Assembly: GCF_037042905.1 (NCBI RefSeq)
Contig: NC_087251.1
Coordinates: forward strand, 3,784,001 to 3,848,000
Direction of reading: 5' to 3'
Source: Lytechinus pictus
Lineage: Eukaryota
DNA length: 64,000 bases
Shown: positions 27,664 to 38,078 of the stretch, piece after piece
Layout of the letters: the number at the start of each line of letters is the position of its first letter
How positions within the stretch are numbered: position 1 is the first letter of the stretch
Program-made: the position numbers and the translations under genes
Notes under the pieces: generated by a model
What the model was told of the DNA's origin: nothing
The model's input: only the letters and a program-made list of their open reading frames with translations
The model's database searches: none

Positions 27664-29108
27664 TCATCTTTTCTGATGCAGGCCTCTTGTGATATGAGAC
27701 ATAAATTCATAGCGATCAGCGCAGTGGAATGCACATATATTGCACCTAAAGGGCTCCTGCCAGTCATGACATCCCATATGAATGGCATACATAATACTAT
27801 CGGCAAAGATTGTATGACAATGCTCGCATCGCATCACTTCATCTTGAGTTGAACTGTCCATCATCTTATTGCTACGGCTGCGGGATATAGAGCTGTTTGA
27901 GGACAGCTGAGGGGAATGAGCATCTAAACTTTCACGAGAATCTCTGCTGATTGTTGGCGACACTACATTATGAGGCATCCGTGAAGATGAAGAGTTAGAC
28001 AGAGGTGACTGATTTCTAACTGGATATTGAGGGTAGCGAAGGACATTCCTGCCTTCGTTCAGAGAAACAGCTTTCATAATGTAAGGGCCATTGCTGGTAC
28101 TTGAAGCTGTACTTTGTACCTGTCCCCCTTGGAGTAATCTTGAAAGCATGGATGCAGATGTAAGAGCACCCTGGCTAGATGGATGGCAGGTAGTTTGATT
28201 CCCATGACTACTGGATGTTGAACTATTAGCTGATAGTTTGGATTCAGGTCTTTGACAAGGTCTCTGTGAACTATTACTACTTTCACTGGGAAAACGATTC
28301 CTTGATGAAGATGTCGGTGATGGATTACCTTTAGAAAGTGCTTGCTCTAAGATACTCATTCTTGCCAGTCTTGATTGACCATTAGAATGACTTGCATCGC
28401 CGGGTGAGGCACGATCACCTACAGAATCAGGAGACTCCAAGGATCTTTGTGGGTGTGTCTGAATATGATCTACATACTCCTCTATAGAATGGCACCAGCG
28501 ATGACACACATCACAAACATAAGGGTAATTTCCTGGGTCTGAACCCGAATCTGGGTGCCTACGCTTCAGATGTTGTACAAGCTCATGAGCAGATTTGAAT
28601 TTTATATGGCACAAATCACAAGGGAAATTATCCCACTGATGAGATCGCATATGAAGGGTCATTCTCCTCTGACTCTGAAACATGTTACTGCATAGGGGAC
28701 ATTTGAAAGTGAACTGCTTAGAGCTATCTCGTGTATGACGAGTTTTAATATGAGTTTTCAACTGATCCTTTCTTGTTGCATTGTATTCACAGAATGGACA
28801 CTGAAATGGGCGACTCCCACTATGAAGGTTCATGTGCCTTCTTAAACTAGTTTTCTTTGTAAATGATGCTTTGCACCAGCGACAATCAAATTTTTTCTTA
28901 ATACCTCCCATACCAATAGGCTGCATTGTTACAGCTCCTCCAGGACGTAGAGCATTGTAGAGCAATGATGAGCTGGGTCCGGCATCTGGATCCTGATCTG
29001 TCATTGAACCCAAAGTACTTAAATCTTCCGGTTCAGCATCAAATGCAGCTTGCATATCATCACTTTCTTCTCCCATAAAGCTACCACCTTGTTCTATGAT
29101 TGCAGTTT
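27664..29108 (-). CDS. Ikaros/Hunchback-family C2H2 zinc-finger transcription factor, main coding exon
   Basis: Five N-terminal C2H2 fingers plus a C-terminal pair CEHCHTIFADSIMYAIHMGCH...CNICAFHCADRYEFMSHITRGLH matching the Ikaros dimerisation domain; TTTTACAG acceptor at 29109, phase 1. Confidence 0.93.
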
Positions 29109-29655
29109 CTGTAAAATAACATGTTAATCTAAAATTCAAATCACTAGATGACATGAGCTAAATACTTTTAGTACCAGAGAAAGCAATTTTCATTTAGAAG
29201 ATGACATCTTCAACCTGTGACCGTGTGATCTAAAAACCTAATCAAATCATTTTCGCTATAGTATGCATAAAATGCAACAGGTTTGAAGCTGGATTACCAA
29301 ATGAATTTAAGGTAACAAAAAATATTGCTTTTTCAAGTCAATGACTTTTATGACACGAAAATCTAATCAAATGATCATAATTCAAACATACTTGTAAAAA
29401 TAAATATGAAGTTTTATCAGTCAAATTTGTATATCAAAAGTACAAAACCATGGTGAAGGATATGAAATTTAGTAAAGCCATTCATTCTAACATAATTTAT
29501 CCCAAACTCCATCACCCATCACCCGATTTCCAGCCAAAGCGAATAGTAATAATTACCATGATTCATACCACAGTAGGCCTATTACCATTATATTTGCTTT
29601 TATTCAATTACAAATCTGGAAAGCATTTCATAAAACTTTAGTCATAGGTATTTAA

Positions 29656-33825: not shown

Positions 33826-34835
33826 CGTGAGGAGGCCGGAGGAGGGCTCTGTCACTAAAGCACTTAGTGATCTTGGTTGGGAATCTCTCCGAACAAGAAG
33901 TAGAAACCTTAGACTTTGCACGCTATACAAAATGAACACCACTCTCGTCAATATCAAGATAAACGAGTTTGTCCGACGGAACACAAGACATACAAGGGGG
34001 AATAACAAAAAATTCCTCCAGGTTCATCACAAGGCCAGGGACTAGCCTGGAGGCGTCTGGGGAGTAAAAGTCATATACTCTACGTATGGTTACTCCCCGA
34101 ACGCCTGGCGTTGCTATCGTAAGGCTCCCACACACTGAGGGAAAAGGCAACTATAAAAATGCGCCAAACTGCTAATTATGTTTAGAATCTGAGGTTAACA
34201 CTTCTGTACATGGGACGCGTATAGAGGGCGGCAAAATCATGAACGGTGCTAGATTAAAAAGTGCAAAAAATGTCCCGCTTCAACTTCAACTCGCCTCAAC
34301 TGCTTCAACTCGCAAGTTGAAGCGGGACATTTTAGCACTTTTTAATCTAGCACCGCTCATGATTTTGCCGCCCTCTATACGCGTCACGTAACTAGGTTGC
34401 ATTAACAAAGGATCAAAGATGGCGATGTCAACAAGTGTAAGTAAACTCTCTTCTACTTTTATTACTTCATGTCATTTATTTCGTCATTTTGTAACAATAA
34501 CTATCCATTTTTTGCCAAACGTTGCCAACCAATATTTTTACCCATGTACAGAAGTGTTAACCTCAGATTCTAAACATAACTAGCAGTTTGGCGCATTTTT
34601 ATAGTTGCCTTTTCCCTCAGTGTGTGGGAGCCTTACGGTAGCAACGCCAGGCGTTCGGGGAGTAACCATACGTAGAGTATATGACTTTTACTCCCCAGAC
34701 GCCTCCAGGCTACCAGGGACAGGGTCTTTCAAGATTCCTTTGTAAGCACGATAAAGAACTGGAATAACTTCCCCTCCTCGATTGTAAATTGCCCTTCCCT
34801 GGAGTCATTTAAATTAAAACTGAAAGTAACTTCAA
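33826..34835 (+). mobile_element. 3' fragment of a CR1/L2-group LINE ORF2, split by a MITE
   Basis: SVTKALSDLGWESLRTRS..RLCTLYKM...HHKARD joins in frame across the MITE to RVFQDSFVSTIKNWNNFPSSIVNCPSLESFK. Confidence 0.75.
34043..34712. mobile_element. hAT-like MITE with ~170-bp TIRs and an inner 172-bp palindrome
   Basis: TAGCCTGGAGGCGTCTGGGGAG... arms; 8-bp TSD CCAGGGAC at 34035-34042 and 34713-34720. Confidence 0.9.
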
Positions 34836-34872
34836 TAAAGGTCATTCCATACACGTTGCTCTGTGGCGTTGT

Positions 34873-35050
34873 GACTGGGCGTTGTGGCGCGTGCGTGCCT
34901 GTAATCCAAGCTCTGGGGAAGTTACAAATTGATGCAGAGGTTCGAGCCCTGGTCACGTCTTTCGGATGGTGACGTTAAAGGTCGGTCCCAGACGTAAATA
35001 ATCATATCTGATTGATACACGTCTGACAAAACTCAAATTCACACACACAC
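34873..35050 (+). mobile_element. Candidate 7SL-RNA-headed SINE with Deu/Nin-like core and (CA)n tail
   Basis: GACTGGGCGTTGTGGCGCGTGCGTGCCTGTAATCCAAGCT resembles the 7SL/Alu 5' end; followed by GGTTCGAGCC, CGTCTTTCGGATGGTGACGTTAAA and ACACACACAC. Confidence 0.6.
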
Positions 35051-36009
35051 TCGCTACTCGAGTCTAGCGTAGCCAGGCGGCTTCTAGAGAGTAAAAATCA
35101 TTTACTAACGTAAGGTCACTCTCATGAAGCCAGGGCTTCCGTCATATACTTTTGTGTGTACCACCAAAAAACCTGAAACTTTCGCCCCCGAGATTTCTAC
35201 TTTCTTTCTAAAAGATCTAGCCCTAAATCATGTACATGGGTTAAAAATTCATTTCCGACATTTCCGATGTGTCTCTCAATCTCATTTCTCAACTGACATT
35301 TTGCTGACCCAACTATTCAGATTCAGAAAGGTTCTCTTCTTCCCGATTAAATGATTTGGTATAGATCTAGATCACTTAAACATGCTTTTAAGATTATTTT
35401 GAGTGAGATATATCATATGTGCTTGCAGCCTTGGCTTTGCCTTTAGTTAACTTTAAGGAAGATGGAAAAGAGAATTTTTTGGGGGAAAAAACGACACACA
35501 TTAAACAATATGTGGGACTAAGCCTGGTGAAAGCGCACTAAAAAAGACAATTAGAGTTGATACGAATAAGAATAGATTACTACATAGTTATCGTTGATCG
35601 AAACCATATCAAATTGAGATGTCATACCTGAGAAATTTTTTGGGTAATCCTGGGTTTTAGGGGCGTAAAATATCTGTATACATTACCGGCCTCTAACTTC
35701 AGCAAATCATCCCAGCATAGTATGGACGGCTAAAAGGGCAAATATTCAAATATGATTGAGCTGTTTTCATCATTGTTGTCTCGCATGTTATAGCTGGATC
35801 TTTTCTTGAAACTTTGGCATTAGGGCAATCAAGTTTAACTGACCGAGTTGAAGGTCACATGATCAAGGTCAAAGGTCATTTAGGGTGAAATTTTTAACAA
35901 AATAATTGTATTTTTCCCAAGAAATTTGAATGTAAGGGTAATTGAGCTTTACTTTTAATATCAACTTATTGCTGGTCACCTGAACAAGGTCAAAGGTCAT
36001 CTTAATTCG

Positions 36010-37687: not shown

Positions 37688-37960
37688 ACCGGTGTGTTGT
37701 CTCAGTTGGTAGAGCGTCCGTCTCACAACCGGGAGGTCGGGGGTTCAAACCCCGCCTGCGTCAGACCAAAAGACGTTAAAGATGGGAGTTGCTGCTACCC
37801 TGTTTGACGTTCAATGATTAAAGGGATAGAACCTCGTCCATCCGGTGCTGCACAGCGGCCGCCGGGCCCGCGATCAATTGGGCATAGCAAATTTTCGGAC
37901 TATTTCATTTCATGTCTCTTTCGAACAATAAATTATGGATTTTCATTTTTTTTTTCATTT
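37688..37960 (+). mobile_element. tRNA-derived SINE (Meta-SINE-like core)
   Basis: tRNA-like head with A and B boxes and an unpaired acceptor stem, then GTCAGACCAAAAGACGTTAAAGATGGGAGTTGCTGC and a TTTTCA-type tail. Confidence 0.8.
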
Positions 37961-38078
37961 TTTCTATGTTAGTTTATATCGAGTGTGCCTGAAAAACATG
38001 AAAAATATATCACTATCCTATGGCTAGTGGTAATTAAAATACAGGTGCAATACATATATTTCGTTGTCTCTGTATTTA

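What the first reader, a model, noticed from the sequence alone, without database searches (positions are those of the whole stretch)
34873..35050. Candidate 7SL-derived SINE in an invertebrate: Alu-like head fused to a Deu/Nin core
Seen: GACTGGGCGTTGTGGCGCGT[GCGT]GCCTGTAATCCAAGCTCTGGGGAAG aligns by eye to the 7SL 5' end (human GCCGGGCGCGGTGGCGCGTGCCTGTAGTCCCAGCTACTCGGGAGG). It is followed by a B box GGTTCGAGCC, then CGTCTTTCGGATGGTGACGTTAAAGGTCGGTCCCAGACGTAAA resembling the Deu/Nin SINE domain, and a (CA)5 tail. Established: 7SL-derived SINEs are rare (Alu/B1 lineage, and reported in hagfish); I know of none from echinoderms. It starts ~40 bp after a LINE ORF2 end, so it may instead be a 7SL-containing LINE 3' UTR or a template-switch chimera, which would also be notable because Alu domains bind SRP9/14 at ribosomes. 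Only one copy is visible here.
Basis: partly seen in the sequence, partly recalled or inferred. Interest (0 to 1): 0.85.

Follow-up and report, generated by a model that had tools for sequence, protein, structure and literature searches.

The report
Sea-urchin SINE with 7SL-derived head
This is one slightly damaged copy of a young, roughly 1,400-copy jumping element whose first 45 bases are copied from the host's own signal-recognition-particle (7SL) RNA, an origin so far described only for Alu-type elements of a few mammals and one hagfish family.

Summary
Window 34874-35050 (+) is one mutated copy of a short interspersed element (SINE) about 165 nt long with an (AC)n tail.

- **Copy number:** the host genome holds 1,450 heads and 1,423 tails. 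433 copies belong to a very young subfamily, and 15 of the 30 best copies equal the consensus.
- **Head:** the first ~45 nt come from the host's own 7SL RNA. The first 34 nt are identical to one 7SL paralog. Rfam Metazoa_SRP matches model positions 1-44 (31-35 bits, E about 1e-6).
- **No 3' part of 7SL:** past nt ~46 there is no 7SL similarity, so Alu's 3' 7SL part is absent.
- **Rest of the element:** a tRNA-type B box, a block like the start of the Deu/Nin-DC domain, a 3' hairpin and the tail. Three marine metagenome contigs carry this module behind different, non-7SL heads. This points to a chimera of 7SL RNA with an older SINE.
- **Not a LINE 3' UTR:** the copy sits inside a CR1-like LINE's 3' UTR, and 10 of 10 other copies of that LINE lack it.
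- **Novelty:** five literature searches found no invertebrate 7SL-headed SINE. Repbase and Dfam could not be checked.

Pol III transcription, SRP9/14 binding and the partner LINE are inferred, not shown.

The parts
34874..35050 (+). One copy of the SINE: about 165-nt body plus (CA)n tail. It differs from the family consensus at 5 of 164 aligned columns.
34874..34922 (+). 7SL-derived head, equal to the SRP Alu 5' domain (helices 2, 3 and 4 and the UGUAAU turn). It includes the region of the 7SL A box. This copy carries a private 4-nt insertion at about 34889-34892 that enlarges loop L2.
   Evidence: The A-box position (nt 6-15) is as stated in PMC7245038, Introduction.
34923..34951 (+). Non-7SL linker with a tRNA-type B box (GGTTCGAGCCC at 34939-34949). 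Older subfamilies read CGAGG-TTCGAAT-CCTGG here, which looks like a T arm.
34952..34989 (+). Block resembling the 5' part of the Deu/Nin-DC conserved SINE domain (GTCACGTCTTTCGGATGGTGACGTTAAAGGTCGGTCCC).
   Evidence: Compared by eye with Nla_Nin, Lsa_Nin and Pan_3 and BivaMD-SINE1. Invariant in the alignment with the metagenome relatives.
34989..35025 (+). Predicted 3' hairpin: 7-bp stem CAGACGT/ACGTCTG with a 23-nt loop. It is the candidate recognition element for the partner LINE.
   Evidence: present in both the MFE and centroid folds. Conserved in the metagenome relatives.
35026..35050 (+). 3' end ACAAAACTCAAAT plus a (CA)n simple-repeat tail, whose length varies between copies.
34713..34862 (+). 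Context, not part of the SINE: the 3' end of ORF2 and the start of the 3' UTR of a CR1-like LINE copy into which the SINE inserted.
35287..35329 (+). Context: continuation of the same LINE 3' UTR, ending in an ATTCAG-type repeat, downstream of the insertion.
   Evidence: 3 of 3 LINE copies tested align on both sides

Best explanation
The feature is a copy of a recently active non-autonomous retroposon (SINE) with a hybrid head.

**Structure (shown).**
- Its first ~45 nt are the 5' domain of the host's 7SL RNA. That covers helices 2-4, the UGUAAU turn and the 7SL A-box region, and it starts at the 7SL +1 A.
- This is fused to the distal part of an older tRNA-type SINE: a T-arm/B box, a short Deu/Nin-DC-like block, a 3' hairpin and an (AC)n tail.

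**Structure and dispersal (shown).** The structure, the copy number, the dispersal and the youth of the family are shown.

**Origin (inferred).**
- The family was most likely born by template switching, or by recombination, between 7SL RNA and the older SINE.

**How it works (inferred).**
- RNA polymerase III starts at the 7SL +1 position, using the 7SL-derived A box and the tRNA-type B box. It reads through the element, which contains no TTTT.
- The RNA is reverse-transcribed and inserted by a LINE that recognises the 3' hairpin and tail. That LINE has not been identified.
- The retained Alu 5' domain may also bind SRP9/14 and bring the RNA to ribosomes that are translating the LINE, as proposed for Alu.
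For: **Multicopy and dispersed**
- 1,578 first-look candidates; all 40 that were scored match.
- The 27-nt head occurs 1,450 times at <=3 mismatches, with 0 hits for the reversed control. This count includes the 7 true 7SL genes.
- The 27-nt tail occurs 1,423 times.
- The young head-body junction occurs 433 times, control 0, and the first 100 listed are all exact.
- 30 aligned copies share their 5' end and have unrelated flanks.
- 15 of these 30 equal the consensus over 157-160 nt.

**7SL origin of the head**
- The host has 7 full-length 7SL genes at 272-283 bits.
- The head has 34 of 34 leading nt and 42 of 46 nt identical to the C12 paralog, including its U3/A42 helix-2 variant.
- RF00017 hits: 31.2 bits, E 1.6e-6, model positions 1-44 with every pair but one standard; and 34.9, 34.6 and 31.9 bits.

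**Hybrid origin**
- Three metagenome contigs share the module from the B box to the tail at high identity but have different heads. One of them (L072) aligns right up to the junction.

**Retroposition**
- Tail lengths vary.
- 5'-truncated copies exist.
- Target-site duplications (TSDs) of >=7 bp occur in 2 of 28 copies, against 0.9% of shuffled flank pairs.

**Pol III compatibility**
- The consensus has no TTTT.
Against: - The window copy itself fails the SRP model at E<=10.
- All SRP hits are far below Rfam's gathering score of 70, because only 44 of 299 model positions are present.
- No part of the SINE past nt ~46 resembles 7SL above shuffles: 299 of 500 and 343 of 500 shuffles score as well. 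The 3' Alu-domain strand kept by all described 7SL SINEs is therefore missing.
- 26 of 28 copies show no clear TSD.
- The whole-RNA fold is no more stable than shuffles, z = 0.20.
- No partner LINE was found. Tail and head counts are about equal, so no abundant LINE shares the tail.
- The young subfamily has lost one of the two loop-L1.2 cytosines of the host 7SL, which may weaken the loop-loop contact.
- No transcription or binding data were obtained.
- The heads of the metagenome relatives are not recognised as tRNA by Rfam at E<=1. Calling them 'tRNA-type' rests on box motifs read by eye.
Confidence: 0.85

Rival explanations
1. The 7SL piece is kept only as a Pol III start site and A box. 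It has no SRP9/14 or ribosome-targeting role. Everything else is as in the best explanation.
For: - The 3' Alu-domain strand is absent.
- The young subfamily changed loop L1.2.
- A stringent LINE that recognises the 3' hairpin would not need ribosome targeting (inference).
- Relatives with other heads carry the same body and tail.
Against: - All 45 nt of the 5' domain are kept, not just the A box at nt 6-15.
- Nt 4-30 are invariant, apart from the window copy's private insertion and substitutions, across the other 9 SINE heads and the 4 7SL genes aligned.
- Helices 2 and 4 stay pairable in every subfamily.
Confidence: 0.4
2. It is an ordinary tRNA-derived SINE whose head resembles 7SL only by chance.
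For: - It has a perfect tRNA-type B box, and older subfamilies have a T-arm-like segment.
- The neighbouring SINE family in the window is tRNA-derived.
Against: - 27-34 nt exact identity to the host's own 7SL genes, with 0 hits for the reversed control pattern.
- The SRP model hits at E about 1e-6.
- No tRNA hit at E<=10, E<=1 or E<=10, and ARAGORN finds nothing in the window.
Confidence: 0.02
3. It is part of the adjacent LINE's 3' UTR, or a single template-switch chimera.
For: It begins about 33 nt after the LINE ORF2 stop position.
Against: - 10 of 10 other copies of that LINE end run straight through the insertion point without the SINE.
- The LINE resumes at 35287.
- 29 other SINE copies have unrelated flanks.
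- The LINE tail is an ATTCAG-type repeat, not (AC)n.
Confidence: 0.01
4. The family spreads mainly at the DNA level, by tandem or segmental duplication or as a passenger of another repeat, rather than by retroposition.
For: - Head-to-tail arrays exist: 7 units at L028, 2 at L039 and 2 at L020.
- L009 and L014 share their flanks.
- Most copies lack TSDs.
- Many copies lie at the same place in a ~120-bp repeat.
Against: - Near-identical SINE copies sit in flanks that are much more diverged or unrelated.
- Tail lengths vary, 5'-truncated copies exist and a few copies have clear TSDs.
- The copies are spread over many contigs on both strands in equal numbers.
Confidence: 0.07

Closest known systems
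SINE1-1_EBu (Ebu1-1), the hagfish 7SL-derived SINE (Kojima 2020, PMC7245038)
   Same: - A young family of similar size (2,363 copies, per the passage).
- Born as a chimera of 7SL RNA with an older tRNA-derived SINE.
- Carries a simple-repeat tail and depends on a non-L1 LINE.
- Arose independently of Alu.
   Different: - Ebu1-1 keeps both the 5' and 3' 7SL regions, i.e. a whole Alu domain with the S domain deleted. This family keeps only 7SL nt 1-45.
- Ebu1-1 has a bipartite RTE-derived body. This one has a Deu/Nin-like block, and its LINE partner is unidentified.
Alu / B1 / Urop (mammalian SINE1)
   Same: - A 7SL-derived 5' end that starts at 7SL +1.
- The same A-box region and the same helix 2-4 fold.
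- The Alu-derived Rfam family mir-1268 also hits the head at a weak score.
   Different: - The mammalian families consist only of 7SL sequence (5' + 3'), have a B box evolved from 7SL nt 76-86, carry poly(A) tails and use L1.
- Here the B box, body and tail are non-7SL and the tail is (AC)n.
Tree-shrew Tu-type units with a head of dual 7SL and tRNA origin (Kriegs 2007, as cited in the passage)
   Same: A head combining 7SL and tRNA-type sequence.
   Different: - The Tu units descend from the single supraprimate SINE1 lineage and are L1-mobilised.
- I saw no sequences, so the likeness is conceptual only.
DeuSINE / Nin-DC SINEs, including sea-urchin SINE2-3_SP (PMC4824008 and PMC5804259 passages; PMC4758252 supplement)
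   Same: The body starts with GTCACG..TCTTTCGGATG..GAC.TTAAA....GGTCCC, like the published Nin-DC/Deu 5' block.
   Different: - The described members have tRNA or 5S heads.
- Here only about 40 nt of the 70-120-nt domain is recognisable.
- The canonical motif spacing is absent from this genome: 1 hit, itself a mutated copy of this SINE.
- The SINE2-3_SP sequence could not be seen, so identity with it is neither shown nor excluded.

Membership tests
SINE (SINEBase working definition, PMC3531059 passage) | [quoted passage not shown] | tested here: met
   About 175 bp long. 1,450 heads and 1,423 tails on many contigs and both strands. Flanks are unrelated. A few tandem arrays also exist.
SINE (SINEBase working definition) | At least 60% identity with tRNA, 5S or 7SL RNA over an overlap of at least 60 nt. 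| tested here: not met
   The 7SL overlap is only about 45 nt, although it is 42 of 46 identical. The rest scores no better than shuffles. No tRNA model hit was found.
SINE | Internal Pol III promoter (A and B boxes) and actual Pol III transcription. | tested here: inconclusive
   The 7SL A-box region and a perfect B-box motif are present, and there is no TTTT inside. Transcription was not tested, because no reads could be laid.
SINE | Marks of LINE-mediated insertion: target-site duplications, a variable tail and 5' truncation. | tested here: inconclusive
   Variable (AC)n tails and truncated copies are present. TSDs of >=7 bp occur in only 2 of 28 copies, against 0.9% in controls.
SINE1 (7SL-derived SINEs) | Head homologous to 7SL RNA. 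| tested here: met
   (identity to the host 7SL). (RF00017, 31-35 bits, E 1.6e-6 to 2.5e-5).
SINE1 | Both the 5' and 3' 7SL regions kept, with the central S domain deleted (a whole Alu domain), as in every described lineage (passages; PMC7245038). | tested here: not met
   No similarity to 7SL past nt ~46. The covariance-model alignment of a 3' strand in older copies is full of non-pairs.
SINE1 | Fold of the Alu 5' domain (helices 2, 3 and 4 and the U-turn). | tested here: met
   Model positions 1-44 align with all pairs standard except one, and that one is also non-standard in the host 7SL. Helix 2 reads ACU/AGU, as in the 7SL C12 paralog.
SINE1 | Binding of SRP9/14. | not testable with these tools
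   No RNA-protein tool was available. The claim is inferred only from the retained 5' domain.
DeuSINE / Nin-DC superfamily | The shared central conserved domain. | tested here: inconclusive
   By eye, about 26 of 33 positions match the first Nin-DC block in the published sequences. The later blocks are not recognisable. The reference sequences could not be entered into an aligner.
SINE2 (tRNA-derived) | A tRNA-derived head. | tested here: not met
   ARAGORN found 0. Rfam tRNA gave no hit on the SINE. Only a T-arm-like segment with the B box remains.

The most novel reading that the evidence does not exclude
This is a fourth independent birth of a 7SL-headed SINE and the first in an invertebrate. 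It is uncatalogued as such and still active or only recently silent.

In this family the 45-nt Alu 5' domain alone, without the 3' strand, has been kept because it binds SRP9/14 and delivers the RNA to ribosomes that are making a stringent, non-L1 LINE.

If so, ribosome hitch-hiking would be a general route to SINE success and not a peculiarity of L1 and Alu.
Probability: 0.3. Interest if true: 0.78.

Novelty: new variant of a known kind. Interest (0 to 1): 0.62.

Why it matters
7SL-derived SINEs include Alu, the most successful human mobile element. Yet specialists count only three independent origins: supraprimates, a shrew mole and a hagfish (passages read; PMC7245038).

An echinoderm family would add a fourth origin, outside the vertebrates, and with a different design. 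It has only the 5' domain of 7SL, joined to a tRNA-type B box and a Deu/Nin-type body.

That design separates two roles usually confounded in Alu: the promoter, and the SRP9/14 platform formed by the 5' and 3' strands together. The family is very young, so many intact copies are available. It therefore offers a tractable system, in a classical embryological model group, for two questions:
- Does the Alu 5' domain by itself help a SINE to be mobilised?
- Does it do so with a LINE other than L1?

Tried and rejected
- **Rfam on the window copy:** no SRP hit, either at gathering threshold on the whole window or at E<=10 on 34700-35200. The copy is too mutated, and consensus-like copies do hit.
- **More 7SL in the body:** looked for and rejected. 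My by-eye matches to the 7SL B-box and helix-8 regions did not beat shuffles.
- **A tRNA-headed sibling in the same genome:** not found.
  - An A-box...B-box...GACGTTAA pattern gave 8 hits: 5 of the unrelated SINE2-1_SP-like family and 3 chance hits in this family.
  - The head of metagenome relative L071 gave no hit.
  - The canonical Nin-DC motif gave 1 hit.
- **Partner LINE:** not found.
  - The LINE next to the copy has a different tail.
  - A tail pattern with the body negated gave 109 hits, made up of indel-bearing or truncated SINE copies and no shared LINE sequence.
  - A 1.7-kb tandem repeat carrying the tail has no reverse-transcriptase frame.
- **Whole-RNA MFE folding:** uninformative, z = 0.20.
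- **Reads:** the single read-laying run returned nothing, so there is no read-level evidence on expression. The run search lists full holders only under one coded organism.
- **Metagenome scan with the junction pattern:** 0 hits.
- **Earlier notes of this scan:** nothing found.
- **Papers and supplements not held:** Nisson 1988 and the SINEBase supplements. The catalogued sea-urchin SINE heads could therefore not be checked.
- **MAFFT alignment A1:** it misaligns the 3' side of helices 4 and 2, so I read the pairs from the covariance-model alignments instead of running count of structure pairs.

Full report
**1. The observation**

- The element proper runs from A34874 to the end of a CA run at 35050.
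- In the window it is a single copy. A BLAST of the family consensus finds only this place, plus two short weak matches.

**2. It is a multicopy, dispersed, very young element**

A search of the window's own assembly (812 Mb, 368 contigs) gave 1,578 first-look candidates. All 40 that were scored matched; full-length matches were 91-97% identical to the window copy.

Thirty copies aligned with 80-nt flanks show the following:
- a common 5' end, with 28 of 30 starting A-CTGGGCG;
- a constant body of about 160 nt;
- an (AC)n tail of variable length;
- unrelated flanks.

The bracketed GCGT of the window copy is private to it.

Exhaustive pattern counts, each with a reversed-pattern control of 0:

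| Pattern | Mismatches allowed | Matches |
|---|---|---|
| 27-nt head (includes the 7 true 7SL genes) | <=3 | 1,450 (750 + 700) |
| 27-nt tail | <=3 | 1,423 (695 + 728) |
| 41-nt head-body junction of the youngest subfamily | <=3 | 433 (218 + 215); the first 100 listed are all exact |

Among the 30 best copies, which are a biased sample, 15 are identical to the consensus over 157-160 nt. The window copy differs at 5 of 164 columns.

**3. The head comes from the host's 7SL RNA**

Rfam Metazoa_SRP finds 7 full-length 7SL genes in the assembly at 272-283 bits. It also finds 18 short hits of 32-35 bits that are SINE copies (25 scored of roughly 6,077 candidates).

Similarity to the host 7SL genes:
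- The genes start ACCGGGCGTTGTGGCGTGCGCCTGTAATCCAGCTAC...
- The SINE consensus shares a 27-nt exact run with them.
- One paralog (C12, locus L037) is 287 of 299 identical to the others. It starts ACTGGG...GGAAGT, the same U3/A42 helix-2 variant as the SINE.
- An older SINE copy (L038) is identical to that paralog over the first 34 nt, and over 42 of 46 nt in all.

Covariance-model results:
- A consensus-like young copy aligns to model positions 1-44, which are helix 2, helix 3 with loop L2, the UGUAA turn and helix 4. The score is 31.2 bits, E 1.6e-6. Every pair is standard except one, and that one is also non-standard in the host 7SL.
- Older copies give 34.9, 34.6 and 31.9 bits.
- These scores are below the family's gathering score of 70, because only 44 of 299 positions exist.
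- The window copy gives no SRP hit at E<=10.
- No tRNA hit was obtained on any SINE copy.

**4. Only the 5' domain is 7SL**

After nt ~46 the SINE has no similarity to 7SL above shuffles. 299 of 500 shuffles (young) and 343 of 500 (old) score at least as well.

This sets it apart from every described 7SL SINE. All of those keep both the 5' and 3' regions, with the S domain deleted (PMC7245038, Introduction and Discussion; bioRxiv 10.1101/2024.08.25.609555, passages).

**5. The rest is a module shared with other SINEs**

Downstream of the head lie, in order:
- a linker;
- a perfect tRNA-type B box, which in older subfamilies reads as a T-arm-like CGAGG-TTCGAAT-CCTGG;
- the stretch GTCACGTCTTTCGGATGGTGACGTTAAAGGTCGGTCCC;
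- a predicted 7-bp hairpin, CAGACGT/ACGTCTG;
- ACAAAACTCAAAT(AC)n.

The stretch matches, by eye, the first block of published Nin-DC/Deu domains. Examples are AGTCTTTCGGATGAGACGATAAACCGAGGTCCC in Nla_Nin (supplement file 4 of PMC4758252) and GTCACGGGTCTTTCGGATGAG-ACCTTAAA in BivaMD-SINE1 (supplement of PMC4824008). No tool could score this likeness.

A scan of metagenome contigs with a 25-mer of this block found three contigs. Everything from the B box to the tail is almost invariant with the SINE here, but their heads are different and not 7SL. One of them (L072) aligns up to the very junction, TACAAAYTGA. Rfam does not call those heads tRNA at E<=1. They carry A-box-like and B-box-like motifs by eye.

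In the present genome the tail is almost always attached to the 7SL head (1,423 tails against 1,450 heads). No tRNA-headed sibling was found.

The simplest reading is a chimera: 7SL RNA nt 1-45 replaced the 5' half of the head of an older Deu/Nin-type SINE. This parallels the origin proposed for the hagfish family (PMC7245038, Discussion).

**6. It is not part of the LINE**

The frame upstream (34685 onward) is the C-terminus of a CR1-like LINE ORF2.
- Ten of 10 other copies of that LINE end continue, at the point where the SINE sits, into ACTCTCTTCACTACGTTAGCG...GACATTTTGCTGACCCAACTATTCAGATTCAGA.
- In the window that continuation reappears at 35287-35329. Three of 3 LINE copies tested align on both sides.
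- The SINE is therefore an insertion into the LINE's 3' UTR.
- The LINE's tail differs, so it is not the partner.

**7. Mechanism**

Shown:
- the structure, copy number, dispersal and youth of the family;
- a start at the 7SL +1 nucleotide;
- no internal TTTT;
- variable tails;
- truncated copies.

Weak:
- Target-site duplications of >=7 bp occur in only 2 of 28 copies, against 0.9% of shuffled flank pairs.
- I recall that LINEs of the CR1/L2 type often leave short duplications or none.

Inferred:
- Pol III transcription from the 7SL A-box region (nt 6-15, per PMC7245038) plus the tRNA-type B box;
- reverse transcription by a LINE that recognises the 3' hairpin and tail;
- SRP9/14 binding. I recall that the isolated 50-nt 5' domain of human SRP RNA was co-crystallised with SRP9/14 (Weichenrieder et al. 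2000). If that is right, the retained piece is the protein's primary site.

Against the binding idea, the youngest subfamily has changed loop L1.2 and kept only one of its two cytosines.

**8. Novelty**

Five literature searches found no 7SL-derived SINE in any invertebrate.
- Kojima 2020 calls the hagfish family the first outside Euarchontoglires.
- Kosushkin et al. 2024 count three independent origins.
- Kojima 2024 lists primates, rodents and hagfishes.
- Sea-urchin SINEs named in the papers I read are SINE2-1/-2_SP (MetaSINEs), SINE2-3_SP (DeuSINE), SINE2-4c_SP (CORE) and SINE2-6_SP. All are filed as tRNA-derived.

I could not see Repbase, Dfam, the SINEBase tables or the SINE2-3_SP sequence. 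The family may therefore be catalogued under another label.

That the host is an echinoid-like echinoderm is inferred from the SINE2-1_SP-like element at 37688-37985. The species was not determined.

**9. Verdict**

This is a real, recently active SINE with a hybrid 7SL/tRNA-type head and a Deu/Nin-like body. I file it as a new variant of a known kind. It is of clear interest to transposon biologists, subject to a catalogue check.

Noticed in passing
L031, L035, L036 (G000:C10, about 7.911-7.921 Mb): An older-type copy of the same SINE ends about 33 bp upstream of each of three tandemly duplicated 7SL genes. It separates them from an upstream block (…CCTCAATA.GACAATAAA…) that lies next to the 7SL genes on contig C1. 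This looks like one insertion that was then triplicated along with the gene.
   Followed up: partly
L037 (G000:C12:4895279-4895577, minus strand): A seventh 7SL paralog, 287 of 299 identical to the others, carries a compensated helix-2 variant (U3/A42). It is the likely source type of the SINE head.
   Followed up: partly
L028 (G000:C18:3952125-3953042); L039; L020: Head-to-tail tandem arrays of the SINE: 7 units of about 170-180 bp at L028 and pairs elsewhere. This may be a SINE-to-satellite transition.
   Followed up: no
Flanks of L008, L017, L020, L030 and L043; three places: Several near-identical SINE copies, some of them 5'-truncated, lie at about the same place in diverged units of a ~120-bp tandem repeat (…AAATAACCGGGTCTGGAGGAAAGACTAC…|SINE|GTTATTC…). 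A loose GTTAYTC-like motif follows the tail in other copies too. This suggests a target preference of the unknown LINE.
   Followed up: partly
One search list (for example G000:C2:60610391, C14:11484317, C15:4567731, C10:27392734): Several copies break off at exactly the same point, keeping only the last ~38 nt (CTGATTGATACACGTCTGACAAAACTCAAAT(AC)n) behind unrelated sequence. This is either a recurrent truncation point or a template-switch point.
   Followed up: no
L069 (G000:C18:3151960-3153780) and neighbours up to 3158900: A 1.71-kb tandem repeat with at least 5 units. Each unit contains a truncated SINE tail, and there is no reverse-transcriptase frame.
   Followed up: partly
window 34043-34712: An insertion of about 670 bp splits the LINE ORF. 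It is bounded by 73-bp terminal inverted repeats (34043-34115 minus strand, 34640-34712 plus strand). These repeats recur about 30 times among the 40 scored candidates elsewhere in the genome, so the insertion looks like a MITE or DNA transposon.
   Followed up: partly
window 35051-35286: Between the SINE and the resumed LINE 3' UTR lie about 236 bp. Only short pieces of this resemble the LINE by eye, so part of it may be a further insertion of unknown kind.
   Followed up: no
window 37688-37985 (+): A tRNA-derived SINE whose head (Rfam tRNA, 31.9 bits) and following sequence match the published start of SINE2-1_SP, a MetaSINE. At least 5 similar copies were seen in the genome.
   Followed up: partly
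window 27664-29157 (-): A 497-aa open frame with several C2H2 zinc-finger motifs at both ends, probably an exon of a host gene. It was not examined.
   Followed up: no
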